Below, one piece after another: positions 24,101 to 45,816 of a stretch of DNA of 64,000 bases (position 1 is the first letter of the stretch; each line of letters starts with the position of its first letter). The DNA is taken from assembly GCA_030167865.1 (NCBI GenBank), contig JALAGF010001848.1, positions 1 through 64,000 on the forward strand, given 5' to 3'. A program made the translations under genes and the position numbers. This stretch comes from Craspedostauros australis (lineage: Eukaryota). Below the pieces are notes generated by a model. That model saw only the letters and a program-made list of their open reading frames with translations, ran no database searches and was not told where the DNA came from.

Positions 24101-27100
24101 TGCGATGCTGGCAGACTTGAGCATTTGGAAATTCTTGCGAAGGCGGTACATGCGGTACAATGTCTGCAGCCTGATGCCCGCAAGGATGCGACGGGTGGTG
24201 AACCCACGGAACAATGCCTGGTACCGGACTGTCCCGCGGCGAGCCCTGTTGTACTTTCGACGATGAATTTGCATTCGGTAATGCGTCGTGAACAACAGAC
24301 CTGCCTTGGCTTTTCGCAAACGCCACCAGCTGTGAAGAATTGGACCAAAGGAATCAAATGTGCAGGCGGACGTGCACGTGCAAGTTCACAACGAACATGT
24401 CGGTTTGAAGATGATGACCAGGTTCAATAAAGAGAAAGAGCGGAAGAGGGAGATGGAATAGTGTTAGGGATCTGCATCGTCACGTCACGTCACGTCACAT
24501 CAATCGGCGTGGTGTGATGCAGTGCGCATATTGCAAGTACCGTACGAGACCACCGCCAGGATCAAGTCGAAAATGGCAGGTATGCCATTTAGAGAGTATA
24601 ACACAAGTGGCCACGACGAATGGGAGTGGTATGCACACATTGGACACACCAACTACACGCGTTTTGTAGCAAAACGCTGGCATTGCAATGTGAATGCGAT
24701 CGCGATGACAGGCTTTGTGCTGTGGACGTACCGTTCTCTGCCCCTGCAGCCACGGTACCATCGTTGGATGGTGAGCATGGCGTCGTCGATGATGAGGAAC
24801 TTCTTTCGCTGTTGCAGTCCGCGAACCCAGCACTGGATCATGGTGGCAGAAGCGTGCTGGTGGAACACTCTGTGCGCTTCGAGGGCATCGTGCGGTGGCT
24901 TTCTCATGAACACCTTGGTGAGACCGAGCTGCACATCTGTCTGTGGGAAGATCATGGCGATGGGTTGGTTTTGCATTCTGCGGATCTTCTCGGACCGAGA
25001 GATACCCGGTTCCTTCGGATCGACCTTGCCATCTGCCTTGAGCTGCTCCTGCTTCTTGCCCTCCTCGAGGCATGCGACAAGGAGAGACACACACAGAGTC
25101 TGAGCATCCTGTCCCTCCATGCTCCACGGGATCTTCTCGTCGGGGACGGAAGGGAGGAGCATGCGGTATCTCTGGAAGAACGAAGTGTGCGTCAACCGCA
25201 CAGGGTATCCAGCACGGGCAACACGCACGGCCTCCAAGACACCACCGTACCGGAGCTGTTCTGTGAGGCGCTTGCGGGTGAGCATCTTTGGCTTCGCTGC
25301 ATCGTTGGGCTTCAGACAACGGATGTAATGCGGATCCGTCTTTTCGACGCTAGCGATCAAGCTCGTCAGCTGGCTCTTGAATTGCTGTCCGACGGTCTTG
25401 GATCGGGCTGGACCCTTTGCTGGTTTGTCGCCTGGCGAGCGATCCTCCGTCTCGCGTTTCTGGATGGAGTACACGTCCTTCATCAGTTGTGATGGCGCGG
25501 TCTCGAACAAGGTCTGTGCAGCAAGGGGGATCTCGTCCTTGTTCTTCTCCATGAAGTTGGTTTCGGCTCTGTACTCCACCAGACCGGCGAAGTGACGCAC
25601 GCAGAAGAAGGCCTTCGCCTGTTGGATCTTGGTTGCATGGAAGCGTGTGTTGTCGGAGACGGACTGGTTCTTGCTGGGGAGGTACTGCTGGTACATGCGC
25701 TTCGCCCAGTTCCTGTCGCTACCTCGTGGCAGACGGCATTCATCGTCAAGCATGGACAGGATTCCGACCTTGCTCTTCTGGATGGTGTCGAGACAGTCCT
25801 GGTTATCTGGGAAGGAAATGAACGCCCATTCGATCTGTTCGCTCTCGTACTCGGCCTGTTCGAGCTTGAAGATGAACTTGTTGAACTGTTGTTGCAGTGC
25901 TTCGTTCGTGAAGTTGATACACAGCTGTTCGAAGGAGTTGATGGCGAAGCATTCGAATCCGAAAATATCCAACACTCCGACGGAGGATCGGACGTCGCCG
26001 TCGTTCTTCCAGCAGATACTCTTGTTGACCTGCTCCACGATCCAGAGAAAGAGCGCTCCGTAGATGGTCTTCGCGAGCGCATCTCTTGCGTCGTTGGCAC
26101 TCTCTGGAGTCAGCTCCTTTCGAATTTCTTCGCCACGAGTCACCATGACCTTCTCGGTGAGGGCTGTCTTCATTCCCTCCACGTCCACACCAAGCAAGGA
26201 TGCGGCGCGGTCCATGGGTCCCGTGTCCTCGATGTCGGCCGCATCCTGTCCGGAGTCACTTGGCTTCGTTTTGAAGGCGATCTCTCCGAGATGCACGATA
26301 CCGGCGATGATCGAAAGCACGGCGTCGACGAGGTCGTCGCCCCAACCAAGGGCCCGCATGGCCTTGAGTGTGTACGCCAGACCATCTTCGTCCGTGAATT
26401 CTCGCAGCTGCGGCGCGCCTCCCTGCTTTGTGTAGTAGTAGTGGTTGCAAAGTTCCACGCCGCCGGTGCTTCCCTCCATGAGGCCGAATTTCTGCTTCTG
26501 CTCTTCCGTGGCACCGCGAAGAAGCTGGTAGAAGATGTGGTAGTTGCGTTCTCCAGAGGCGTGGAAGGCGAGGCGGACCTTCTCAAGGAGGTAGGTCTGG
26601 ACCTTGGCTCCCAGCAGATGACCTGCGCGGCTGAAGCCGAGCTCGATGAATTTACCGAAACGTGAGGAGTTGTCATTTCGCAGGGTCCGGGCGTTACCGA
26701 AGGCCTCGAGGACGGGGTTGGATTGCAGGACACGCTGCATGATGGAGAGCTCTCCGCTCTCGTCCTGTTCCACACCCATACCTCCGAGCTTGGTGAGATA
26801 CGACATGACGATCTTGGTGGATTCGGTTTTTCCTGCTCCAGACTCTCCTGAAATGAGGATGGATTGAGATTTGCGCTTCTCGCTCATCATTTGACGGTAG
26901 GAACGGTCGGCGATGGCGAAGATGTGCGGGTCCAAGTCAGACTTGCCTCCTCCCATTCCCTGGGAACGGAAGAGACCCTCACTACGGTACGATTCCAAGA
27001 TTTCCTGTTGTTCGGATGGTCAAATGGAGTTGGTCACATGTGTCGGTCCATTTCGTTGGTTAGATGGTCCAATGCATGGGCATGAATCGAGTCATCGTCG

Positions 27101-27824
27101 CCATCCATGTTCATGATGGATACGAGTGGAGTGATTGAATTGGGATCCATAGAGCAGGTAAAGTGAGAATATTGATGTCTCGTGCTTGCGATGGAGGACC
27201 AATGAAGGGCGCCAAGGCGAGATACGCCATGACATTGCAAGGCACCAAACCGGAATCGATGGATGAAAGATGCCTGCATGCAATGCTGCATCCTGTATTC
27301 CGCATACTGAACGTCCAACGTTCGGTGCAGGGTGTACCAGAGCAGTGGTAGCAAGACAGACAGCGAGATTGGTGGCAAGACAGGTAGCAAAGCACGAAGG
27401 AAGGAAACGAATGACCCTGATGGCGGTCACAACAACTTACATCGGAGTACAGGGGAAGGCGCTGGAACGGATTGACGGCGATGAGCACAGGGCCAGTCCA
27501 TGTGTAGATCTTGCCGCGAAAGAAACGCTCCGCGATGGCATGCAAGATTGCCGGTTCGTGCAAGTGGGGAAGCGCGATGAGGTCATTGTCCAGACCTTCG
27601 GCTTGCTCCTGCTCGCTGAGCGGTGTGTTGGCCAGCTCGACACCCTGGAACTTCTTGACGGCGCTCTCCTCGGCCTGTTCTTCCGGAAGGCGGGTGAACA
27701 CGTTGTCCTTCTTGTTGACCTGCTGGAGTTCGAGCTTGTCGTCGCCTTTCTTCAAGACCTCCGCGAGCATCCATGCTTCGTCGCCGGTGGAGTCGGAGCA
27801 CCACACATAGGCACCCTCCTCCAT
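21187..27824 (-). CDS. Myosin heavy chain: motor, ~6 IQ motifs, coiled coil, PH-like domain, terminal coiled coil; 5 exons, ~1576 aa
   Basis: Exons 27824-27441, 27004-24732, 24329-23409, 22600-22107 and 21845-21187; all GT-AG and phase-compatible (total 4731 nt). Motifs LPHLHEPAIL, IAVNPF, GESGAGKTES, NDNSSRFGKF, LDIFGFE, HYIRCLKPN, QLRYGGVLEAVRV. IQ-like motifs IQCWVRG, IQRWYRG, YQALFRG, LQTLYRM. Confidence 0.93.
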
Positions 27825-30259
27825 GGTTTAGCCGTTGTTGTTGTTGCTGTTGCTACTGCTGCTGCTTCTGTCACTATGGCTCGGTAGGATGAGGGGTCAC
27901 TGGTGTTGTGACAAGCTTTGTCAGTGTGGCGTGGGTGAGATCCGACGCTGACAAGAGTCACGGAATCGGCACAGGTGGGATGATGTGCCGCCGCAGCTTC
28001 CGTTTGGATACGGTGGAGCAGTTTGTTGGTCAGTTGGATGGAGGTTTGGATGGATCCAGCGGCAACCGCTCGTCTATGCGCTCTGGAGAGAGAGAGAGCT
28101 GTCTCCGGAAACACTTCCAAGGGTCGTCGGGAATGAGGTCGGCGCTGCTGCGTTGAAGACCAACAACCTTGGAAGCCTGATGTGGGCGTTGGCTTTGGTC
28201 TCTGCGGCTGCGTCTGTGTTGTGATTGATGATGGAGCAACCTCGACGCAAAGATTATTTTTGGTTGTTTGGCTGTTTTTCGCTGTTGTTGTTCTTGTTGG
28301 CTTTGGCAAACAGAAGATTGCGCGGAGCGAGCGAAGTTTTCTCGTGCCACAGTGACCACACGGTCCGTGTCTCTCTCTGCCTCCCTCTTTGGTGTTCGCT
28401 GTCCTTGCCAGTTGTTTCCCTTTCTCTCTTTGGCTCTTTCGCGTTGATTCTTGTTCGATCCAGCGGAACTCACAAATGACGGTTGCGCCTCACTTTCTCG
28501 CGTGGATCCGTCCTTGTGTGTTCCAGTCCCGTTCCGTCAGAATTGATTTGCGCGGTGTCACCGTCACGGATAATAATTTCGCGACGTGTCAAGCCGACTC
28601 CCTCCAACACCTGATTCATTCGACTTGACATCCTTGCTCGTCTGGCTCGCTCAACGGGTGGAAAATAGGATTTGCATGCGACAGATGTTACACATCGACG
28701 TTAAATGGAGGTTAACAACGACAGGAAGATCTCGTTCGAGCTGCGCGATGTTGTGCTCACGCTGCGTGATGGGGCACATCAAGGTTCCTCTTGGAAGACT
28801 ACGCGAAGAGTCTGCGTGGAGTATTCTTCTCATCTCTCTCTCTCTTTGTCTCCATTCTCCACTCGCAGAGGTCGACTCTCTATTGATTGCAGCATGCCCA
28901 ATGCACTCAGTAATACCACATACCGTCTCCCATGCATGTGAGGAGAATAGAGTAGGGAAGGGTGCTTGCACAAACAGCATTCCATACTTCAATGATCTCG
29001 AACTGCGTTGCTGATCGTGAGGCGTTCCCTCCTCTCTCTCACTCTGTGCCTGTCCAACTCTTCATGGGAAGATCTGGACATGGCACCATGCGATCCTAAA
29101 AAAGCAAAGAAGTGGACTCACCAGAGTACTCCATGAAATTATTGCCACAGGATCGTCATCCCAGCAAGGCAGCTATCAACGGAGGAGATTCATGTGCGCA
29201 CGGTGCAACTGCAACGGGCGTCGGGGTTGCGATGCACCACCAACATCCGATCACACATCTCCCAAGCAGACCATACTATATGTACTATTATGTACAAATA
29301 ATCACGCATTACCTGGACATCGTCATCTGACAGGCCACAAGAAAAGACGAGACGAGACAAGACAAGACAAGAGAGCAGGAACCAAGGATAGTGCATCATT
29401 TGATGTGAGTCTTCCCAATTTTGTGAGGCGAATCATTGGCAGCAACTTCGAGAGGGTATTACGGACATGGTACTGAAACAATACCAGTATACCATATTGG
29501 TGTTCAGAGTACCTCCATCTGAGTAACCGTTGTTGAAGAAGGGACGAACGAACGGCGGGAAGAATCTGTGCCGACGTCCAAGTGCGTCCATTCGCGTGAT
29601 GGATTCGATGTGCGCACGAGAACAAGAACACTGGAGCATGACCAGGCCCACCATTTCGTGGCTGTTCGTGGGAATCCGAAGACGAAGACAGTATTGCGCG
29701 TGAGGTGATGGCGTGGTGATGGCGTGGTGATGGCACGGTGATGTGATGTGAGCAACGTCGACATCCACGACGCTGCACCACACGCACACATGGCGCCACC
29801 AGATCACCAGATCACATCCATTCAGTACAGGTACTCGTGGCGTAGAGTTGAGTGAGTATGGTGCACAGGGCCCAGTTCTCTGTCTGTACTCGTGGGTATT
29901 GGTATGTTTGAGCCACCGTTGCATTCGTACGATCACCACACAAGCACAAGTCCTCACGGAACCAACCACCGCGGACTTTTCTGCCATCCGTAACTCATAC
30001 CCTCACGCCTTCTCGTATTCTCTCGTGCCTGTTCAGACAAGCACAAGCACTCGCGCTCTTCCTCATCATTTCCTTCCTTCAGAGAGTGCCGTAGCTCGTA
30101 ATTGTGCTCCGTTACTCGAGTAGAGTGTTGCAACGACCCATCAACTTTCCATCAACCAAGCAAGGAAGCAGAAAGCAAGAAAGAGACATCAACAGCCAAG
30201 CACCGAAGTGACATCAAGACTGGCCATCGCCACATCACATCATACCACACTACACCACC

Positions 30260-36671: not shown

Positions 36672-39600
36672 ATGCCGATGCATGTGGCACCAACGATGGC
36701 CGAGCGCGAGGCCGAACTCGCAGCTCTCCAGGCCGCCTTCGATGAATACATCGCCAGCTCTCGAGAGCTGGAGGAAGAGCTCGATGCTGAGCTTGCCAAG
36801 ATGCGTAAGTTACAAAGATGGTCACTGCCACCATCACCGACAACAACGCCGCGGACAACATCAGCAGCAGCAACGACGATAGCACCGGAGCAGTGCCAAC
36901 AAGAGCAGGAACGGTGAAAACAGATACCACCATGGCGAGGCGGTGGCGGCATTGTTCGTTGCGTTGTTTTTCTGAATTTCGACTGGATATTTTCCATCCT
37001 CCGACTCTTTTGGCCAGTTCTGGCCTAAAATGAGGTTGTTCCTATCAGAATGACCCAAATGACTTGGCATTTCTCGTCATTTCTGACTGATATCATCCAC
37101 CTCCTCCACCTTCGCCCATCCACCGCCGCGCTGCCACACATGCCGACGATATTCATCTTGCTTTTTTGGTGTTCACCACCGGCTATGCTCCTGCTACTAC
37201 AACGGCTGCAACCTATACCCATGCTCGCACTCGTAACTCGTACCTCATGCCCGAACGAATGCTCACCAACAATGATCGTTGCTGCGATTCCAACTCGTGA
37301 TGCTGACGTGAAACCCTCAACTCGGAACACAAATTCACAACAGAGGAGAAGCTTGCGGATTCGTCTGCCGCCAATGCTGCTCTGTCTGCCCAATTGGAAA
37401 ACATCGCGCCGCAGCTGGCATCATTGGAGAAGGCCCTCTCCGAAAGTCGCGCCAAAGTGAAGGAGGAGCAGAAGCAACGCAGACAGGCAGAGCAAGCTCA
37501 GGACGAATTGGAGGCCAAGTACCGCGAGGCTGAAGGATCCTTGCTTGCGGTCCGCGAGGAATGCGACGCCGTCCACGAAGAGCTCGCCTTCAAGGAAAGC
37601 GAGCTCGAGGAGACCAGGCTGGAGCTGGAAGTCGAGCGCGAAAGGTACCGTGTGGACGTCGAAGAGGTCCGCGCCGACGCCCTTCTGCGATCATCCCTGG
37701 ACAGGAAGGATGACGGAACCAACGACACCGACCAGGCCACATCGCCATCGGATGGTGCCGCCAACACCGCTTCGTCCAGCGTCATTTCCAACGCCGCAGA
37801 CAATGCCTACGTCAAGAAGCTTGAGGATGAGCTGGAGCTTGTCACCGAACAGCTCATCGAGACCGAACAGCGCCTGTCGCAGACCGAAGACAGACTCGCA
37901 AATGCCGAGGCCGCCTCCAAGAACACCCTGGTGGAAGAGGAGCGCAAGAAGGTCGAGGAGACCATGAAGAGCCGCGAGAAGGACACAGAACTCATCCGCG
38001 TTTTGCAGACAGAGAATGCCGGACGTTTGGAAGAGGAGCACAAGCTCCGCGAAGAATTGGAACTCACCCGAGAGGAGCTGTCGCTCACGCAGGAGGAGTT
38101 GCGCGCTGTCGAATTCGATGCCAAGGACGTGCAGAACCGCTTGGAGAAGCTCCGGTCGGAACACCGCGACGAAATCAACTCGCTTCGCGGCCTGCTCCAA
38201 AACTCAGAGGGAAGCGCCAAGGTGTCCGATGTCGAACTCGACACTTTCGAAAAGACCCTCCAACAGGCCGCCGAAGAGAATGAGACGCTCAAGACCGAGG
38301 TCGAAAATCTCAACGCCGCCTTGTCCAACGCCAAGCGTGATCACGAAGCCGTCGTTGACGAATTGGAGGCCGTCAACTCCAGATTCGACGAGGCCATCAC
38401 AGAGGCAGAGAAGCGCGGCCGTGACGCTGGCGGAAGCGACATCAAGGAGGTGATGAAGACCGAGCGCGAAGGCGAGCTCAACGACCTCAAGGAACAGTTC
38501 AAGAAGCTGACTGAGGAGAATTCCAAGCTGCAGACCAAGGTCGACGAATCCGACATGGCCATCGCATTGGCCAAGGACTCGCAATCCCGCAACCTCGAGG
38601 GTGTCGAGGTGCAGAGCGAGATGGTCAAGCAGCTCCAGTCGCAGCTCGGACGCGCCCGCGACGACCTGTCCAAGAAAGAATCAGAGATGGCCGTGCTTGC
38701 GTCAGACCTCAAGGAACGTGTCAGCAAGGCCGAAGACAATGTCACCAAGCTCGAGAAGGATCTCTCCCTCACCAAGGGAAAGCTCGCAGAGGCCGAGGCC
38801 CACCTCATCGTCTCGAAGCGCGAGAAGGAGCTCGCGGAGGCATCCTCCATCTCCAAGCGCACTTCCTCCATCCGGCCTGGATCATCCAGAACTGGACACA
38901 GCGGTACCTCCATCTACCATCCAGATCTCGACAATGTTCAGAAGCGTCAAAAGGTTAGCCGCCGACGCCGAACACGATCCAACTCGCCAAATGCGTACAA
39001 GCGCTTGGAGCTGCGCATCAATGACGAGAAGAAGAAGTTGGCTGAGCTCCAGAAGGAACACGAGAAGCTCAAGGACCAGAAGCGCATGGGCGAGGCCCAC
39101 GTGAAGAAGCTCGAGGATGACCTGGCCGTGCTCCAGAAGCAGCTCTTCTCCAAGGGAGAGGCCGGCATCACGACCGACATGTCCCGATTGAGCTCTCTCG
39201 GCAACGGCGGAGGTTCCACCGATCTGCTCGATGGCAGTGCCAAGTCCAAGGTGGCCGAAGTCATCGAATCTGGCGACGTTGGTCTGATGGGTCAGGAATT
39301 GCAAACGCTCGAGAAGAAGTGCAACGCCCAGCGTGACTACAACAACCAGCTTCTCAGCAAGATGCTCAGCCTGCAGGGTAACATCCAGGTGTTCTGCCGT
39401 ACCCGTCCAATGAGCATCAAGGAGGTCCAGAAGGGATGCAAGACCGTTGTTGAATCCTTGAGCGAGACCGAGCTCGGTTGCTTCGATGCTCGCACCAACA
39501 AGTGGAAGAGTTTCGCATTTGACCGCGTTTGGGGTCAAGACCAGTCTCAGCAGAGTATCTTCCAGGACGTCGAGCCAATCGCACTCAGTGTCGTTGATGG

Positions 39601-41615
39601 TTTCAACGCCTGTATCTTTGCCTACGGTCAGACGTAAGTGACTTCATTCATCTTTGTGTGCTGACTGCGGTGTTCCGTCACGTCAACTCAATTCAACGGA
39701 ATGAAATGAGACGAAATGAAATGAATTACGATGAGACAGGAAAGCGATTGCGCACGTGTTGCTTCCCAAGCCCATGCACTCACACAACCGCGTGCGTTTC
39801 TTTGCTTGCTTACTTTCAATACCATGCACGTCTACTCTTCATACCCATCTCTGTGTGAATGCGCGCTTTACTCTCGATGCCACTTTGGCGTCAATTTGAT
39901 GCACTACTCTGCATATGTACCACATGAATGCGCGCAGTGGAAGTGGAAAGACCTACACGATGGAGGGTGCGGAAGTTAACAACCAGCGTGGTATCAGCTA
40001 CCGCACCATCCAAAAGGTCTTCCATCTTCTTGACTTGAAGAGACAGCAAGAGAAGACTGCTGCCATCCTCCTGAAGTCTCAGGAAGAGCGTGAGGAGACC
40101 AAGGAATTCGACTTCGCCATCAAGATTGGTATGCTTGAAATTTACAACGACGAATGTTATGATCTGCTCGGATCTTCCGGCGCGACCCTGGCAGAGAAGA
40201 AGGCTGAGGCGCAGAAGGCCGGTGGCAAGGCGTCTCTCGAAATCCGACGTGACCAGAACGGACGCATCGACGTCCCCAACCTCACCAAGGAGGATGTGAA
40301 TTCCATCGAGGATGTGATCGAGCTGCTGAAGCGTGGTAACAAGAACCGTGCGACTGCTGCAACAAGCATGAATCAATCCAGCAGTCGCTCTCATATGGTC
40401 TTGCTCGTCGAGGTGTCCTCCGGATTCGAAGGTCAACCAGGCAACAAGGGTAAGCTCCTCCTCGTCGATCTCGCCGGATCCGAACGTGTCCGCAAGAGTG
40501 AGGTCGAGGGAGACCACCTCAAGGAGGCCGGTCATATTAACAAGTCGCTGTCCGCTCTCGGAAACGTCATGGAGGCTCTTGATCGCAAGGCATCCCACAT
40601 TCCATACCGTGACAGCAAGCTGACGTACCTGTTGCAGGATTCCTTGGGAGGCAACTCCCGAACAATGATGATCGTCGCGGTGACGCCCGTGGACACCGCC
40701 TACGACGAATCCATCCATGCGCTCCAGTTTGCGACACGCGTGCGTCGCATCCAAATCGGAGCTGCAAAGAGAAATATCACATCCAAGAACTTGGAGGAGA
40801 CCGTGAAGGCACTGACAGCAGAGATGAAGACCCTCACCATGCAAAAGCAGAAGACCGAGGGTCAGCTGATGTCGTTGAAGAGAGACAACAACCGTATCCA
40901 GGACAAGCTCCAGAACCTGTCCAGCTCGCGCAAGAACACGCAGAGCGACAGCAAGACGCTGGAAGTGCTGCGCAAGAACAATACCGAGATGGCCAACCGT
41001 TGGCAGAAGGAGAAGAGCCTGCGCGAAGAAACCGGCGAGGAGTTGGAGAAAGCGCAGAAGGAATTGCGCAAGTCTCAGCAAGTCCTCAAGAAGGCGCAGC
41101 GGGAGCAAGAGACACTGGAGCGCAAATTGGAAGAGAAGGAACGCCAGCTGGAGAAGAAGGCCATGGAGCTGCGAACCGCCAAGGACCAGTCCACGGCTGC
41201 CAATCTGCGTGCCAGAAAGGCCCAGGTTATCGGATCGCGTGCCAGACCAACACCGAGCCCATCGAAGGCTCCTCGTCCAGCCGCGAAGCCAACAGGAGCT
41301 GCATCCGTGGCATCTGCTACCACAAGCGTAAGTGCGGCATCGACCGAGGCCACAGAAGATGTGTCCGAGATCCGTGCGCAGGTCTTGAGCTTGCTCGAGA
41401 AGTACGACAAGGGCAAGGTGAATCGCATCGACATCATCATGGAGAAGTTCAAGGGCAAGGAGTCCCTGCTGCTCGAGAAGATGACCCAACGCTACGAGAG
41501 CGGTGCAGAGGCCACCCCAGAAGAAGCCGCTGCCGCACGATCCCGCAGTCATCTCGCGACCCAGCGTCACATGGAGCGCATGCGCAAGCTTCGCGAGGCG
41601 CGAGGTGGAAAGTAA
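36672..41615 (+). CDS. Kinesin-14 with an N-terminal NudE/NDEL1-like coiled coil, long stalk, internal motor and C-terminal tail; 3 exons, ~1360 aa
   Basis: Exons 36672 (or 36696)-36804, 37344-39633 and 39938-41615, phase-compatible. Kinesin-14 neck LSLQGNIQVFCRTRP; FAFDRVW; P-loop split by intron 2 (FAYGQT|GSGKT); MNQSSSRSH; LVDLAGSERV; INKSLSALGNV; HIPYRDSKLTYLLQDSLGGNSRT. Confidence 0.94.
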
Positions 41616-43150: not shown

Positions 43151-43734
43151 TGTTCTTCTTTATGTTCAAGGACTCTCTTTGTTCTCTGCCCCTGTTCCTC
43201 GTTTGTCTCTGATGGCGCGAGGGTGGGGGGTTTGGTCGTCCAAGGCCTGGCCATCTTGGCGCCTTGTTGTGTTTGCGTTTGTTGCTGGGACGTGTGAAGA
43301 TCCGTTCAGTCACGTGTGACATTCCCGGCTATCGACGAGGTCTGCACCACACATCGTTGTTCCCATGCCGCATCACGCGCCGCGCACCAGTCGTCAAGGC
43401 GCATCGCGTGGAAAACGCACCAAAGAGCCACAAGAGGCATGGCATCAACACCCACTGCTCGCTCCGCCTTTGCCCAAGAATCGGAACATCGCTTGCGGCT
43501 CTCCGCAACCACCCCTCACGCTATCCAGCGAATGGACAATTGAGCGTTCCACCTCCAACAACAGAAACACTAGAACAGTCTCATTGAGAATAGAGGAATC
43601 GTCGTGCAGAGTGGGGAGCGCAGAAAAGACGAGGGCAGTGCGCTTCCAATACTCTACACGCCACTCCACGAGTACAGAAGCACAGCATTGCAGAATACCT
43701 ACTCTGTTAGGTGCAGCGGGCCGTGAATTCGACC

Positions 43735-45816
43735 ATGCTTTCTCGAAGCGCGCAGGGATCATCCAGAGCGGGCCTTTCCAGGAACTTGCTCCGTTCCCGT
43801 GCAGGTGCCATGGCGCGCTTGGGTCTGGAAGATGGCAATCGACCATCATTTCCCTTGCCATCGGCACCCACCTTCAGACCGCTGTGTGCGTTCGTATCCG
43901 CATCATCGAGTGGTGGTATGGAGAGAAGAATCAAAGACCAGTCCCATGCTGCGCTTCGCCTCAGCATGAGCACATCACATTCACGAAATCACTCCAACAA
44001 TTACATCCGCAATGACGCGTCTCGCCTCGTACAAGATCATGATCAGATGGGCACGTCGCGCAGACGTTCTCAAAGTCAACGGGCATATTCAACTTCAACT
44101 GTAGCAACGGCTGCATCACCAGCAACTGCGGGCGACAATGATGCTCTGGACACCAACAGCACATCGGAAGATGATCAAATAGAAGTCCAGACAAAGCAAC
44201 AGACGCAGCAACAGACGCAGCAACAGATGCAGAGGCAGACGCAGACACAGGAACCAAAGCACCTGGTGGTCGACGACGTCATTTCCAACATCTCAGATGC
44301 TGCGAGCTTTCATCGCAAATGGGATGTCGAACTGGTGAGGCGCGCGGTTGACGAGTACGAACTGTGCCTGAAGCACTTCTACCACGAAAAGAAGGGAACC
44401 GCAGGTCAAGCACTCGGCGAGGTCGTCATCAGCGCGGCAAGTCCCGAAGCCAAAGCTCGACTCCTGTCTCCAATCGTCGCCAAAAAGGCATTCGTTGCCG
44501 TGCTACGATGCAAAATACCAACCAACAAGCTTTCTCGCAGGGTCCGCAGCATGGAGACCTACATCGGCACTCTCGGACAGACCGAGATGACTGACGCTCT
44601 GTCTTTCAGGATGCTGCAAGCCAATGGAAAATCGGGCAACATCGGACGCGCTTTGCAGCTCCTCTCCTTCCGAAAAAGCAAGGAGTACGAACCCCAAAAG
44701 GGCGAGTTCATCCACGCCATCGCCGCCATCAAGGTGGCCGGCACATATCTCAAGAAGGATCGCAACATCTTCCTCTCTGACCAGCAACAGCCCCCCATAG
44801 ACAATCCGACACGCTGGCTGGATGCCATCTTGCTGAACATGAGCCAACGCGGGTTCCCACTTACAACAGAACTCGCAAACCAGATGATCAACACATACAC
44901 GACGACGGGGAGCACTGGGAAAGCTTCTCATTACTTCTACACGGTCTTCCGCGAGGAGTCCGAACCAACAGATGGTGCAAATACTCTTGAGACCGCGGAT
45001 GGCCCGGATGAAGGGAAGTCCGCAAGCTATCGTGGGAAACCAATGAAGGTCACGCTCACCATGAGATCACCGCCGCCGTATCACAAAATCCCATCGCAAG
45101 TCAAGGGCAAGTTCGTACAGAAACCAGGATCTGACGCCCGACAACTGAAGCTCGACCGCGAGTGCGATCCCAGCTGGAGCGTTCCGCTGTCGGAAGCCTT
45201 TGCATTCGCAGACTCGTTATCGCACGGCGCCTGCGGTCATGATCCGGTCGAACTCAACTTGATCAGCTACACAACGTTGATGAAAGCCTGCGTCAATCGC
45301 GGCGGTCTCTGGCGCGCGATGCAGATCATCGATGAGATCATGCCAGCGAACAACATCCAACCTGATGCTATGGCGTACGATACTCTGCTCGGCGGATTGT
45401 CCAGGGTCGGTGATGTGCCCACCATGCACCAGTACTACGACCAAATGGTCGGCCAGGGCGTGGCACCCACACAACGCACGGTGGAGACGATCGCCGGCGG
45501 CATGCTCAATCTGGGTGACGTCCCCAACGCCATTACCATCGTCCAAGACTTTTTCAATCAGCATTCTGTCTTGCCACCCTATACGATGCATCTGAAGATC
45601 ATTGAATTCGCTCTCGGCCGGGGTTTGGTGTACGAGGCCAAACGCCACGTCTACTTCCTCCAGCAACTGTGGAAGTGGGAGAAGAACAAGTACCACACAG
45701 ACGAATTTGTGGAGCTCGTGACGCTCACCCAACTCAATCCCAAACTCTCCAAGGAGGCCCTCCAAAAGCTGTTCCGTTACTTCGGCGAAGAATTGGAGGA
45801 CGCTGACTTCTTTTAA
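43735..45816 (+). CDS. Pentatricopeptide-repeat (PPR) protein, probably mitochondrial
   Basis: Single exon. Arg/Ser/Leu-rich N-terminus (MLSRSAQGSSRAGLSRNLLRSR). Tandem ~35 aa PPR motifs ISYTTLMKACVNRGGLWRAMQIIDEIMPANNIQPD and MAYDTLLGGLSRVGDVPTMHQYYDQMVGQGVAPT. Confidence 0.85.
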   Translation: MLSRSAQGSSRAGLSRNLLRSRAGAMARLGLEDGNRPSFPLPSAPTFRPLCAFVSASSSGGMERRIKDQSHAALRLSMSTSHSRNHSNNYIRNDASRLVQDHDQMGTSRRRSQSQRAYSTSTVATAASPATAGDNDALDTNSTSEDDQIEVQTKQQTQQQTQQQMQRQTQTQEPKHLVVDDVISNISDAASFHRKWDVELVRRAVDEYELCLKHFYHEKKGTAGQALGEVVISAASPEAKARLLSPIVAKKAFVAVLRCKIPTNKLSRRVRSMETYIGTLGQTEMTDALSFRMLQANGKSGNIGRALQLLSFRKSKEYEPQKGEFIHAIAAIKVAGTYLKKDRNIFLSDQQQPPIDNPTRWLDAILLNMSQRGFPLTTELANQMINTYTTTGSTGKASHYFYTVFREESEPTDGANTLETADGPDEGKSASYRGKPMKVTLTMRSPPPYHKIPSQVKGKFVQKPGSDARQLKLDRECDPSWSVPLSEAFAFADSLSHGACGHDPVELNLISYTTLMKACVNRGGLWRAMQIIDEIMPANNIQPDAMAYDTLLGGLSRVGDVPTMHQYYDQMVGQGVAPTQRTVETIAGGMLNLGDVPNAITIVQDFFNQHSVLPPYTMHLKIIEFALGRGLVYEAKRHVYFLQQLWKWEKNKYHTDEFVELVTLTQLNPKLSKEALQKLFRYFGEELEDADFF

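What the first reader, a model, noticed from the sequence alone, without database searches (positions are those of the whole stretch)
36672..41615. NudE/NDEL1 dynein-LIS1 regulator domain fused to a kinesin-14 motor
Seen: after splicing, the N-terminus reads FDEYIASSRELEEELDAEL...QLASLEKALSESRAKVKEEQKQRRQAEQAQDELEAKYREAEGSLLAVREECDAVHEELAFKESELEE. Recalled from memory: the human NDEL1 coiled coil reads LVEFQEGSRELEAELEAQL...[67 protein letters not shown]. The two align with a single ~11-residue deletion and are ungapped from LE..LS..RA through AF.ESEL.E. Positions equivalent to the LIS1-binding E119 and R130 and the dynein-binding E39 and E48 are identical; E52 is D and E36 is not conserved. 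The second half of this domain, the stalk and the kinesin-14 neck plus motor start all lie in one open exon (37344-39633), so the fusion is not an artefact of my gene model. NudE proteins are normally stand-alone and non-motor. Inference: a chimeric motor that could carry LIS1 and/or dynein along microtubules, or physically couple two minus-end motor systems, for example in the diatom spindle or in nuclear migration. I do not know of a description of this architecture.
Basis: partly seen in the sequence, partly recalled or inferred. Interest (0 to 1): 0.9.

Follow-up and report, generated by a model that had tools for sequence, protein, structure and literature searches.

The report
Kinesin-14 carrying a NudE coiled coil
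A diatom gene encodes a microtubule motor (kinesin-14) whose first 150 residues are a relative of the NudE/NDEL1 coiled coil that binds LIS1 and dynein in animals and fungi, which suggests that two minus-end motor systems are physically linked in these algae.

Summary
Window 36672-41615 (+) is a three-exon gene with GTAAGT donors and AG acceptors. It encodes 1366 aa with one terminal stop. A complete transcript of a close relative (89% identical) carries both junctions.

The motor is kinesin-14. Pfam Kinesin scores 6e-83. The best solved relatives are KIFC3, KCBP and Ncd, and the neck with its GN junction aligns to Ncd.

Residues 1-150 are a discrete domain, conserved as strongly as the motor. 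Profiles of this domain find the NDEL1 coiled coil first among 177,635 PDB sequences. The score rises as the profile broadens: 31, then 38, then 46 bits (E 5e-11). Generic coiled coils stay at 21-23 bits, and a control coiled coil from the same proteins finds no NudE.

The equivalents of NDEL1 E48, E119 and R130 are invariant in 18 of 18 motor-fused relatives.

The fusion is conserved across diatoms and in one PX-clade ochrophyte. Six literature searches found no description.

LIS1 or dynein binding is inferred, not shown. The region lacks NUDE_C, so it is a domain-level homologue and not a canonical NudE.

The parts
36672..36804 (+). Exon 1 (residues 1-44 plus the first base of codon 45). It encodes the first part of the NudE-like coiled coil, including the SRELE..EL block. 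E25 (36744-36746), E34 (36771-36773) and D38 (36783-36785) are equivalent to NDEL1 E39, E48 and E52, the dynein intermediate-chain site.
36805..37343 (+). Intron 1 (GTAAGT...CAACAG, phase 1). The exon-1 frame runs into a stop inside it. The intron position is kept in other diatoms: genomic gene models P0026, P0054 and P0234 read through it after ..AKM.
37344..37660 (+). Second part of the NudE-like coiled coil (residues 45-150). E94 (37490-37492) and R105 (37523-37525) are equivalent to NDEL1 E119 and R130, the LIS1 site. The AFKESELEE block is also here.
37661..39292 (+). Poorly conserved linker (about residues 151-200) followed by a long coiled-coil stalk. It lies in the same open exon as the NudE-like part and the motor start.
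39293..39382 (+). Kinesin-14 neck coiled coil ending in the G-N junction (39377-39382) directly before the motor (..SLQGN|IQVFCRTRP). It aligns to the Ncd neck.
   Evidence: (PF16796)
39383..39633 (+). Start of the kinesin motor domain (end of exon 2, up to FAYGQ).
39634..39937 (+). Intron 2 (GTAAGT...GCGCAG, phase 2). It splits the P-loop codon Thr.
39938..40751 (+). Rest of the motor domain: P-loop GSGKT, switch I SSRSH, switch II DLAGSE.
   Evidence: (PF00225 6.4e-83)
40752..41357 (+). Post-motor coiled coil and low-complexity linker. The motor is therefore internal, not C-terminal.
41358..41498 (+). Conserved 47-residue C-terminal box of unknown family.
41499..41615 (+). C-terminal end and stop codon (41613-41615).

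Best explanation
SHOWN. Window 36672-41615 is a real three-exon diatom gene for a 1366-residue kinesin-14 of the KIFC3/KCBP/Ncd kind. Its motor is internal and is preceded by the family's neck.

Its first ~150 residues are a separate, strongly constrained domain. This domain is homologous to the N-terminal parallel coiled coil of NudE/NDE1/NDEL1. In animals and fungi that part dimerises, binds the dynein intermediate chain through E48/E52, and binds the LIS1 propeller through E119/R130.

The NudE C-terminal region (NUDE_C) is absent. Its place is taken by a linker, a long stalk, the neck and motor, a second coiled coil and a conserved tail box. The architecture is conserved across pennate and centric diatoms and occurs in Chrysoparadoxa (PX clade), so it is old within Ochrophyta.

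INFERRED. The protein is a homodimer whose N-terminal coiled coil keeps NudE's scaffold function. It recruits LIS1, and probably cytoplasmic dynein-1 through its intermediate chain. The kinesin-14 motor then supplies microtubule attachment and, presumably, minus-end-directed movement.

The likely result is to concentrate or tether LIS1-dynein on microtubules and their minus ends. Candidate sites are spindle poles or the microtubule centre, and nuclear positioning. Equivalently, it couples the two minus-end motor systems mechanically during microtubule focusing.
For: Gene and mRNA.
- One continuous frame holds half of the domain, the stalk, the neck and the motor start.
- Splice sites are canonical and the product has a single terminal stop.
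- P0004 (JGI) and P0273 (Stauroneis constricta MMETSP transcript, 'type:complete') are 89% identical over the full length and read across both junctions.

Conserved architecture.
- 51 of 51 listed long relatives carry PF00225.
- 113 of 120 listed relatives carry PF00225.

Kinesin-14 identity.
- PF00225 scores 6.4e-83, and PF16796 also matches.
- The best PDB matches of the motor are KIFC3 and KCBP.
- For the neck plus motor start, the 14 best PDB sequences are all kinesin-14: Ncd x8, KCBP x2, KIFC3, an Ashbya Kar3-like chain and Kar3 x2. The Ncd neck is aligned.

NudE homology.
- Exon 2 alone gives NDEL1, NDE1 and NDEL1 as its three best PDB hits.
- Profile A1 (11 diatom kinesins) scores NDEL1 at 1.8e-6, 31 bits.
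- Profile A2 (17 sequences) scores it at 1.4e-8, 38 bits.
- Profile A4 (18 motor-fused members including Chrysoparadoxa) scores it at 5.3e-11, 46 bits. That alignment covers profile positions 18-160 and chain positions 26-181. NudE chains take ranks 1, 2 and 3.
- The best non-NudE hit stays at 21-23 bits in all three searches.
- Control profile A5, another 152-residue coiled coil of the same proteins, has a best hit of 2.2e-3 at 21 bits and finds no NudE.
- Language-model features, as a lead only: a NudE-like fragment cluster is at rank 3 with score 0.89 for P0004 residues 1-160. NUDE_C clusters take ranks 1-3 at 0.89-0.90 for family member P0068.

Constraint on the domain.
- Residues 1-150 have column conservation 0.71-0.93. 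The motor shows 0.50-0.97, mostly 0.74 or more. The stalk shows 0.29-0.77. This used 36 orthologues.
- Against P0273 the N-terminal domain is 97% identical, the motor 96% and the stalk 83%.
- The equivalents of E48, E119 and R130 are invariant in 18 of 18 sequences of A4.
- The roles of those residues come from passages of PMC3101096 and PMC9041303.

Dimer model.
- It predicts a parallel, in-register coiled coil over residues 5-158. The score is 0.51 and the best of 3 controls is 0.00.
- The mark was reached by 21 of 30 proteins solved as pairs of one chain and by 0 of 23 solved as single chains (microbes).
- On eukaryotes it was reached by 17 of 29, but by only 1 of the 7 with no older solved relative.
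- The runs agree in at least 98% of contacts and pLDDT is at least 88.
- The pass may be from memory, because the NDEL1 dimer is a solved structure.

A partner exists in diatoms. T. pseudonana encodes a canonical DYNC1H1 (PMC2239267 passages). P. tricornutum is not among the species listed as lacking dynein heavy chains.
Against: - No binding data of any kind exist.
- LIS1 and the dynein intermediate chain of this organism, or of any diatom, were not examined here.
- NUDE_C (PF04880) is absent at E up to 10. It is also absent from 0 of 30 family members scanned.
- The equivalent of E36 is Ala.
- The single-sequence search is only borderline. NDEL1 scores E 0.005 and ranks second, behind a Toxoplasma coiled-coil protein at 7e-4.
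- A profile of the four small stand-alone paralogues alone does not find NDEL1 at E up to 1.
- No canonical NudE appeared among the 150 and 120 relatives listed. Both lists were filled by diatom sequences.
- A reciprocal NudE-profile test could not be run.
- Atlas scores of about 0.9 are leads only.
- Direction of movement is assumed from the family. The motor is internal, with a 290-residue tail.
Confidence: 0.6

Rival explanations
1. The domain descends from NudE but no longer acts on LIS1 or dynein. It serves as a dimerisation and cargo- or microtubule-binding tail for another partner, much as other kinesin-14 tails bind a second microtubule.
For: NUDE_C is missing. The E36 equivalent is lost. 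Diatoms also hold non-motor paralogues (P0095, P0101, P0158, P0173, P0183, P0188). These keep only the first ~105 residues and have lost the R130 equivalent, so the module can drift to other uses. No binding test was possible.
Against: In the motor-fused family, the residues whose mutation abolishes dynein binding (E48; E52 as Asp) or LIS1 binding (E119, R130) are invariant in 18 of 18 sequences. This holds at overall identities down to 32%. Pure dimerisation does not predict that. R103 of P0004, the R130 equivalent, is not among the residues in the predicted dimer interface.
Confidence: 0.27
2. The likeness to NudE is convergent and comes from coiled-coil composition. The N-terminus is an ordinary kinesin stalk segment.
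For: The single-sequence search is borderline, and a generic coiled coil outranks NDEL1. Pfam gives only weak generic coiled-coil hits for exon 2. HMMER reports large composition bias terms on the NDEL1 hits.
Against: All three NudE coiled-coil sequences in the PDB rank 1-3 of 177,635 with profile A4, and the top hit is 24 bits above the best decoy. The NDEL1 score grows with profile diversity while decoy scores do not. A matched control coiled coil finds no NudE. The alignment is colinear over ~140 residues with one 11-residue gap. The domain is conserved like the motor and unlike the stalk.
Confidence: 0.08
3. The fusion is a gene-model artefact: a small NudE-like gene lies next to a kinesin gene.
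For: No RNA run for this exact organism could be listed, so the junction in this genome is inferred. Some database models are truncated or read through introns (P0006, P0010, P0026, P0054).
Against: Residues 45-150 of the domain, the whole stalk, the neck and the motor start lie in one uninterrupted frame of 776 codons. MMETSP assembled transcripts marked complete carry the whole architecture in several species. One of them, P0273, is 89% identical to the window's product.
Confidence: 0.03

Closest known systems
NudE / NDE1 / NDEL1 N-terminal coiled coil (PDB 2V71, 2V66, 7E1T)
   Same: About 140 residues align colinearly. The SRELE..EL block and the AF.ESEL.E block are shared. The equivalents of E39, E48, E119 and R130 are identical and E52 is Asp. 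A parallel in-register dimer is predicted. In Xenopus extract the coiled coil alone (residues 8-192) acts as the LIS1-dynein scaffold (PMC3101096 passages).
   Different: There is no NUDE_C region. There is an 11-residue deletion relative to NDEL1. The E36 equivalent is Ala. The domain is not stand-alone: the C-terminal regulatory and targeting half of NudE is replaced by a kinesin stalk, motor and tail.
Kinesin-14 motors (Ncd, KIFC3, KCBP, Kar3)
   Same: The motor motifs are present. The neck coiled coil and GN junction sit N-terminal to the motor. The best sequence matches are to these proteins.
   Different: The motor is internal, followed by ~290 residues with a second coiled coil and a conserved box. 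The N-terminal tail is a NudE-type domain. It is not a basic microtubule-binding tail (Ncd; recalled) or the MyTH4-FERM of KCBP (named in PMC1434745 passages).
Kinesin-dependent delivery of dynein-LIS1: yeast Kip2-Bik1-Pac1 (PMC4046564, search listing and start of abstract only) and kinesin-1 with NDEL1-LIS1 in neurons (recalled, not seen here)
   Same: A kinesin is linked to the dynein-LIS1 machinery. This is what the diatom architecture would achieve.
   Different: In those systems the link is non-covalent, uses plus-end-directed kinesins and serves plus-end delivery. Here the NudE module is part of the kinesin polypeptide, and the kinesin belongs to the minus-end-directed family.

Membership tests
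Kinesin-14 | Kinesin motor domain with P-loop, switch I and switch II | tested here: met
   PF00225 scores 6.4e-83 on exon 3. GSGKT, SSRSH and DLAGSE are read in the translation.
Kinesin-14 | Family-specific neck coiled coil N-terminal to the motor, ending in the G-N junction | tested here: met
   ..SLQGNIQVFCRTRP aligns to the Ncd neck and junction. PF16796 scores 4.3e-14.
Kinesin-14 | Closest relatives by sequence are kinesin-14 members | tested here: met
   KIFC3 and KCBP are the top hits for exon 3. The 14 best PDB sequences for the neck plus motor start are all kinesin-14. No tree was built.
Kinesin-14 | Motor at the C-terminal end | tested here: not met
   The motor ends at about residue 1080 of 1366, and a 290-residue tail follows. 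Internal-motor kinesin-14s are known in plants (PMC1434745 passages), so this does not exclude membership.
Kinesin-14 | Minus-end-directed motility | not testable with these tools
   This needs a motility assay.
NudE/NDE1/NDEL1 | N-terminal ~180-residue parallel coiled coil homologous to NDEL1 residues 8-192 | tested here: met
   Profile A4 against the PDB gives 2V71 at E 5.3e-11 (46 bits), 2V66 at 1e-6 and 7E1T at 4e-4, ranks 1-3. The best decoy is at 1e-3. The control profile finds none. The dimer model is parallel and in register (the pass may be from memory).
NudE/NDE1/NDEL1 | LIS1-binding residues E119 and R130 | tested here: met
   Window E94 and R105 align to them. Both are invariant in 18 of 18 sequences. 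Their role comes from PMC3101096 passages.
NudE/NDE1/NDEL1 | Dynein intermediate-chain site E36/E39 and E48/E52 | tested here: inconclusive
   E39 and E48 are identical, E52 is Asp and E36 is Ala. The E48 equivalent is invariant. In PMC3101096, E48A/E52A abolishes binding and E36A/E39A reduces it.
NudE/NDE1/NDEL1 | C-terminal NUDE_C region (PF04880) | tested here: not met
   There is no PF04880 match at E up to 10 in any exon. None was found in the 30 family members scanned.
NudE/NDE1/NDEL1 | Physical binding of LIS1 and dynein | not testable with these tools
This needs a pull-down or a multimer model.

The most novel reading that the evidence does not exclude
In diatoms and other ochrophytes the NudE scaffold has been built into a kinesin-14. 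One polypeptide then binds LIS1 and cytoplasmic dynein at its tail and walks on, or anchors to, microtubules with its motor. That would be a covalent coupling of the two minus-end motor systems. This motor-fused form may be the main or only LIS1-competent NudE of diatoms, because no canonical NUDE_C protein surfaced among the relatives listed. If so, it organises the unusual diatom spindle poles and post-mitotic nuclear migration.
Probability: 0.3. Interest if true: 0.85.

Novelty: new variant of a known kind. Interest (0 to 1): 0.66.

Why it matters
NudE/NDEL1 and LIS1 are central regulators of cytoplasmic dynein, and how they hand dynein over is still debated. To my knowledge they have only been described as soluble, non-motor proteins.

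A conserved family in which the LIS1- and dynein-binding coiled coil is the tail of a kinesin-14 would be a natural experiment on motor coupling. It predicts a direct complex of kinesin-14, LIS1 and dynein. It offers a candidate for the machinery that focuses microtubules in the diatom spindle or moves the diatom nucleus. [quoted passage not shown]

The idea is directly testable in transformable diatoms using four obvious point mutants.

Tried and rejected
- The whole genome of the window is not held. Stand-alone NudE, LIS1 and dynein in this organism could therefore not be surveyed.
- RNA runs: no RNA holder was listed.
- Earlier findings of the scan: nothing to show.
- Pfam holds no match for the N-terminal part beyond weak generic coiled-coil families, and no NUDE_C match.
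- The single-sequence PDB search is borderline.
- Profile A3 of the four small stand-alone paralogues found no NudE in the PDB at E up to 1. It found only its own four members in the big protein collection.
- The two large searches meant to reach canonical NudE returned lists filled with diatom sequences and exon-1 fragments (150 of 284 listed; 120 of 226 listed). No canonical NudE entered the session as a stored protein, and a reciprocal profile-profile comparison could not be run.
- A complex model with LIS1 or the dynein intermediate chain was not possible for the same reason.
- The C-terminal box has no Pfam match and no PDB match.
- No kinesin tree was built.
- P0068 carries a precomputed family PF27974.1 that is not in the local Pfam copy. 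I could not learn its name.
- Literature: six searches found no description of a NudE-kinesin fusion. 'NudE' is a poor search word because it matches 'nude'. PMC1434745 has 0 occurrences of NUDE and notes that its T. pseudonana kinesin models were short. Subscription journals and InterPro or UniProt annotations were not searched.


Full report
**Gene model**

The region holds one gene on the + strand. The first ATG is at 36672, and an in-frame stop lies 12 nt upstream.
- Exon 1 ends at 36804 before GTAAGT.
- Exon 2 runs 37344-39633. It follows CAACAG and precedes GTAAGT.
- Exon 3 runs 39938-41615 after GCGCAG.

The spliced CDS is 4101 nt and gives 1366 residues with a single terminal stop. Exon 2 lies in one open frame of 776 codons (37307-39637). 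That frame holds residues 45-150 of the N-terminal domain, the whole stalk, the neck and the first 84 residues of the motor.

**Support from relatives**

A search with the first 140 residues of exon 2 among longer proteins returned 51 proteins at E up to 0.01, out of 1837 candidates scored. They are 1335-2051 residues long, and 51 of 51 carry the kinesin family PF00225.

The closest is P0004. Its 90% cluster holds P0273, a Stauroneis constricta MMETSP transcript marked 'type:complete'. Both are 89% identical to the window's product over the full length. By region, P0273 is 97% identical in the N-terminal domain, 83% in the stalk, 96% in the motor and 88% in the tail. Both read ..AKM-Q-EKLA.. 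and ..YGQ-T-GSGKT.. across the two junctions.

Further rows marked complete transcripts come from other diatoms. Genomic gene models that read through intron 1 directly after ..AKM (P0026, P0054, P0234) show that the intron position is kept. No RNA run for this exact sequence could be listed. The junctions in this genome therefore rest on sequence and on relatives.

**The motor is a kinesin-14**

Exon 3 matches Pfam Kinesin at 6.4e-83. The end of exon 2 matches PF16796. GSGKT, SSRSH and DLAGSE are present.

The best solved relatives of exon 3 are KIFC3 (2.2e-50) and KCBP. For the 150 residues that end exon 2, the 14 best PDB sequences are all kinesin-14. The alignment to Ncd includes the neck coiled coil and the junction..LQGNIQVFCRTRP here against ..LRGNIRVFCRIRP in Ncd.

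Unlike the textbook form, the motor is internal. About 290 residues follow it: a second coiled coil, a low-complexity stretch and a conserved 47-residue box. Internal-motor kinesin-14s are known from plants (PMC1434745, passages). Direction of movement was not testable.

**The N-terminal domain is a NudE-type coiled coil**

With single sequences the signal is borderline.
- Exon 2 alone gives NDEL1, NDE1 and NDEL1 as its three best PDB hits, but only at E 0.026-0.2.
- The first 161 residues of P0004 give NDEL1 2V71 at E 0.005. This ranks second, behind a Toxoplasma coiled-coil protein at 7e-4.

Profiles settle the matter.

| Profile | Members | NDEL1 2V71 | Best non-NudE hit |
|---|---|---|---|
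| A1 | 11 diatom kinesins | 1.8e-6, 31 bits | 21.4 bits |
| A2 | 17, adding two further clades | 1.4e-8, 38 bits | 23.1 bits |
| A4 | 18, motor-fused only, down to 32% identity, including Chrysoparadoxa | 5.3e-11, 46 bits | 22.3 bits |

With A4, chain 2V66 scores 1e-6 and NDE1 7E1T scores 4e-4. The three NudE coiled-coil sequences thus hold ranks 1-3 of 177,635.

The target score rises with profile diversity while the decoy level stays flat. That pattern is what homology predicts. As a matched control I built a profile of the post-motor coiled coil of the same proteins (A5; 8 sequences, 152 positions). Its best hit was a myosin chimera at 2.2e-3 (21 bits), and no NudE appeared at E up to 1.

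Language-model features point the same way but are leads only. A NudE-like fragment cluster is at rank 3 (0.89) for P0004 residues 1-160. NUDE_C clusters hold ranks 1-3 (0.89-0.90) for family member P0068.

Some results go against a simple filing as NudE.
- There is no PF04880 (NUDE_C) match at E up to 10.
- None of the 30 family members scanned has one.
- A profile of four small stand-alone paralogues does not find NDEL1 on its own.

**Functional residues**

The PDB chain index plus 4 makes residues 36, 39, 48 and 52 Glu, 119 Glu and 130 Arg. This agrees with the six residues mutated in PMC3101096 (passages; alignments).

In that paper, E48A/E52A abolished dynein binding and E36A/E39A reduced it. 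E119A/R130A abolished LIS1 binding. PMC9041303 (passages) names E48A for the intermediate chain. It prints the LIS1 pair as E116A/R127A, a numbering I could not reconcile.

The equivalences in the window's protein are:

| NDEL1 residue | Window residue | State |
|---|---|---|
| E39 | E25 | identical |
| E48 | E34 | identical |
| E52 | D38 | Asp |
| E36 | A22 | Ala |
| E119 | E94 | identical |
| R130 | R105 | identical |

Among the 18 motor-fused sequences of A4, the equivalents of E48, E119 and R130 are invariant. The invariant set also includes the surrounding S-R-.-L-E-.-E-L block.

**The domain is a constrained unit**

In 36 full-length orthologues, column conservation in 30-residue bins is 0.71-0.93 for residues 1-150. 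It falls to 0.29 in the following linker. It is 0.44-0.77 over most of the stalk and returns to 0.74-0.97 in most of the motor.

These 36 were chosen from the 54 proteins stored at that point. The criteria were a length over 1300 residues and the SRELE motif in the first 45 residues. Four obviously mis-modelled rows were dropped.

A homodimer model of residues 1-161 of P0004 gives a parallel, in-register coiled coil from residue 5 to 158.
- The score is 0.51 and the best of 3 controls is 0.00.
- The mark was reached by 21 of 30 proteins solved as pairs of one chain and by 0 of 23 solved as single chains (microbes).
- On eukaryotes it was reached by 17 of 29, but by only 1 of the 7 without an older solved relative.
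- The runs agree in at least 98% of contacts, and pLDDT is at least 88.

The NDEL1 dimer is a solved structure, so this pass may be from memory. It shows likeness rather than proof.

**Distribution and relatives**

The profile search of 1.84 billion representatives found 284 proteins at E up to 0.001. Of these, 150 are listed, and many are exon-1 fragments.

Named holders of the motor-fused form, as printed, include:
- Nitzschia inconspicua
- Pseudo-nitzschia multistriata
- Epithemia clementina
- Fragilaria crotonensis
- Rhizosolenia setigera
- Stauroneis constricta
- further MMETSP diatoms

Of the 120 listed rows, 113 carry PF00225.

Outside diatoms, Chrysoparadoxa australica (PX clade) has a 1165-residue protein. 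It has the domain at residues 12-163 (E 1.3e-13) and a kinesin motor at 559-882. The fusion is therefore old within Ochrophyta.

Diatoms also hold two other kinds of relative.
- Long non-motor paralogues (P0095, P0101, P0158, P0173, P0183, P0188) keep only about the first 105 residues and have lost the R130 equivalent.
- Four small proteins of 280-366 residues from unnamed assemblies keep the E119 and R130 equivalents.

**Mechanism**

What is shown is the architecture, the homology and the conservation of the known binding residues.

What is inferred is the function. The dimeric N-terminal coiled coil would bind LIS1, and probably the dynein-1 intermediate chain, as the isolated NDEL1 coiled coil does (PMC3101096). 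The kinesin-14 part would attach this scaffold to microtubules and presumably move it to minus ends.

Diatoms have the partner motor. T. pseudonana encodes a canonical DYNC1H1, and P. tricornutum is not among the species listed as lacking dynein heavy chains (PMC2239267, passages). LIS1 in diatoms was not checked.

I give the functional reading about 0.6. The main rival, at about 0.27, is a NudE-derived tail that now binds something else. Convergence and a gene-model artefact are unlikely.

**Surroundings**

The neighbouring genes are unrelated housekeeping genes:
- a myosin (24.6-27.8 kb, - strand)
- a squalene/phytoene synthase-like gene
- UFD1 (33.5-34.6 kb, - strand)
- a PPR protein (43.7-45.8 kb, + strand)
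- a CRT-like transporter
- an MFS transporter

**Novelty**

Six full-text searches returned no description of a NudE or NDEL1 domain on a kinesin. The 2006 survey of kinesins in photosynthetic eukaryotes does not mention NUDE, and it notes that its diatom gene models were short. Subscription journals and database annotations were not covered.

I rate the finding as a new variant of known kinds: two well-known modules in an undescribed, conserved combination.

Noticed in passing
window 41358-41498 (+): A 47-residue box near the C-terminus (DVSEIRAQVL...MTQRYE) has conservation 0.77 across 36 diatom orthologues. It has no Pfam or PDB match. It may be a second cargo or regulatory site of this kinesin.
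   Followed up: partly
proteins P0095, P0101, P0158, P0173, P0183, P0188 (diatoms): These are long non-motor paralogues of 1005-2348 aa. They begin with the first ~105 residues of the NudE-like domain and share the LDELE.VTEQL motif of the stalk. They have no kinesin domain, and the R130-equivalent Arg is lost. One of them is annotated 'copper amine oxidase' in its source.
   Followed up: partly
proteins P0085, P0090, P0091, P0153 (unnamed assemblies): These are small stand-alone proteins of 280-366 aa with the whole NudE-like coiled coil, including the E119 and R130 equivalents, and a basic C-terminal KRKRG..VRKLGKK..WFR tail. Their own profile does not reach NDEL1 in the PDB. Their organisms are unknown.
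   Followed up: partly
protein P0068: It carries a precomputed Pfam family PF27974.1 that is absent from the local Pfam copy. If that family models the NudE coiled coil, it would be an independent confirmation. I could not learn its name.
   Followed up: no
window 36805-37343 and relatives P0026, P0054, P0234: Intron 1 is phase 1 and sits directly after ..AKM. It occupies the same position in other diatoms' genomic gene models. It separates the dynein-site block (exon 1) from the LIS1-site block (exon 2).
   Followed up: partly
window 43711-45813 (+) and protein P0016: A PPR-repeat gene lies downstream of the kinesin. A 2051-aa Nitzschia sp. Nitz4 gene model merges the kinesin with PPR domains. 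This suggests the same gene order there and a mis-merged model.
   Followed up: no
window 24656-27827 (-): A myosin gene lies here. Myosin_head scores 1e-197, there is an IQ motif, and a further upstream exon is present.
   Followed up: no
Thalassiosirales-type relatives P0250, P0251, P0247, P0068: This clade has an 8-residue insertion in the LIS1-site half of the domain, after the R130 equivalent. Its AF(L/V/I)E(S/G)E block is closer to the NDEL1 motif than the pennate sequence is.
   Followed up: no
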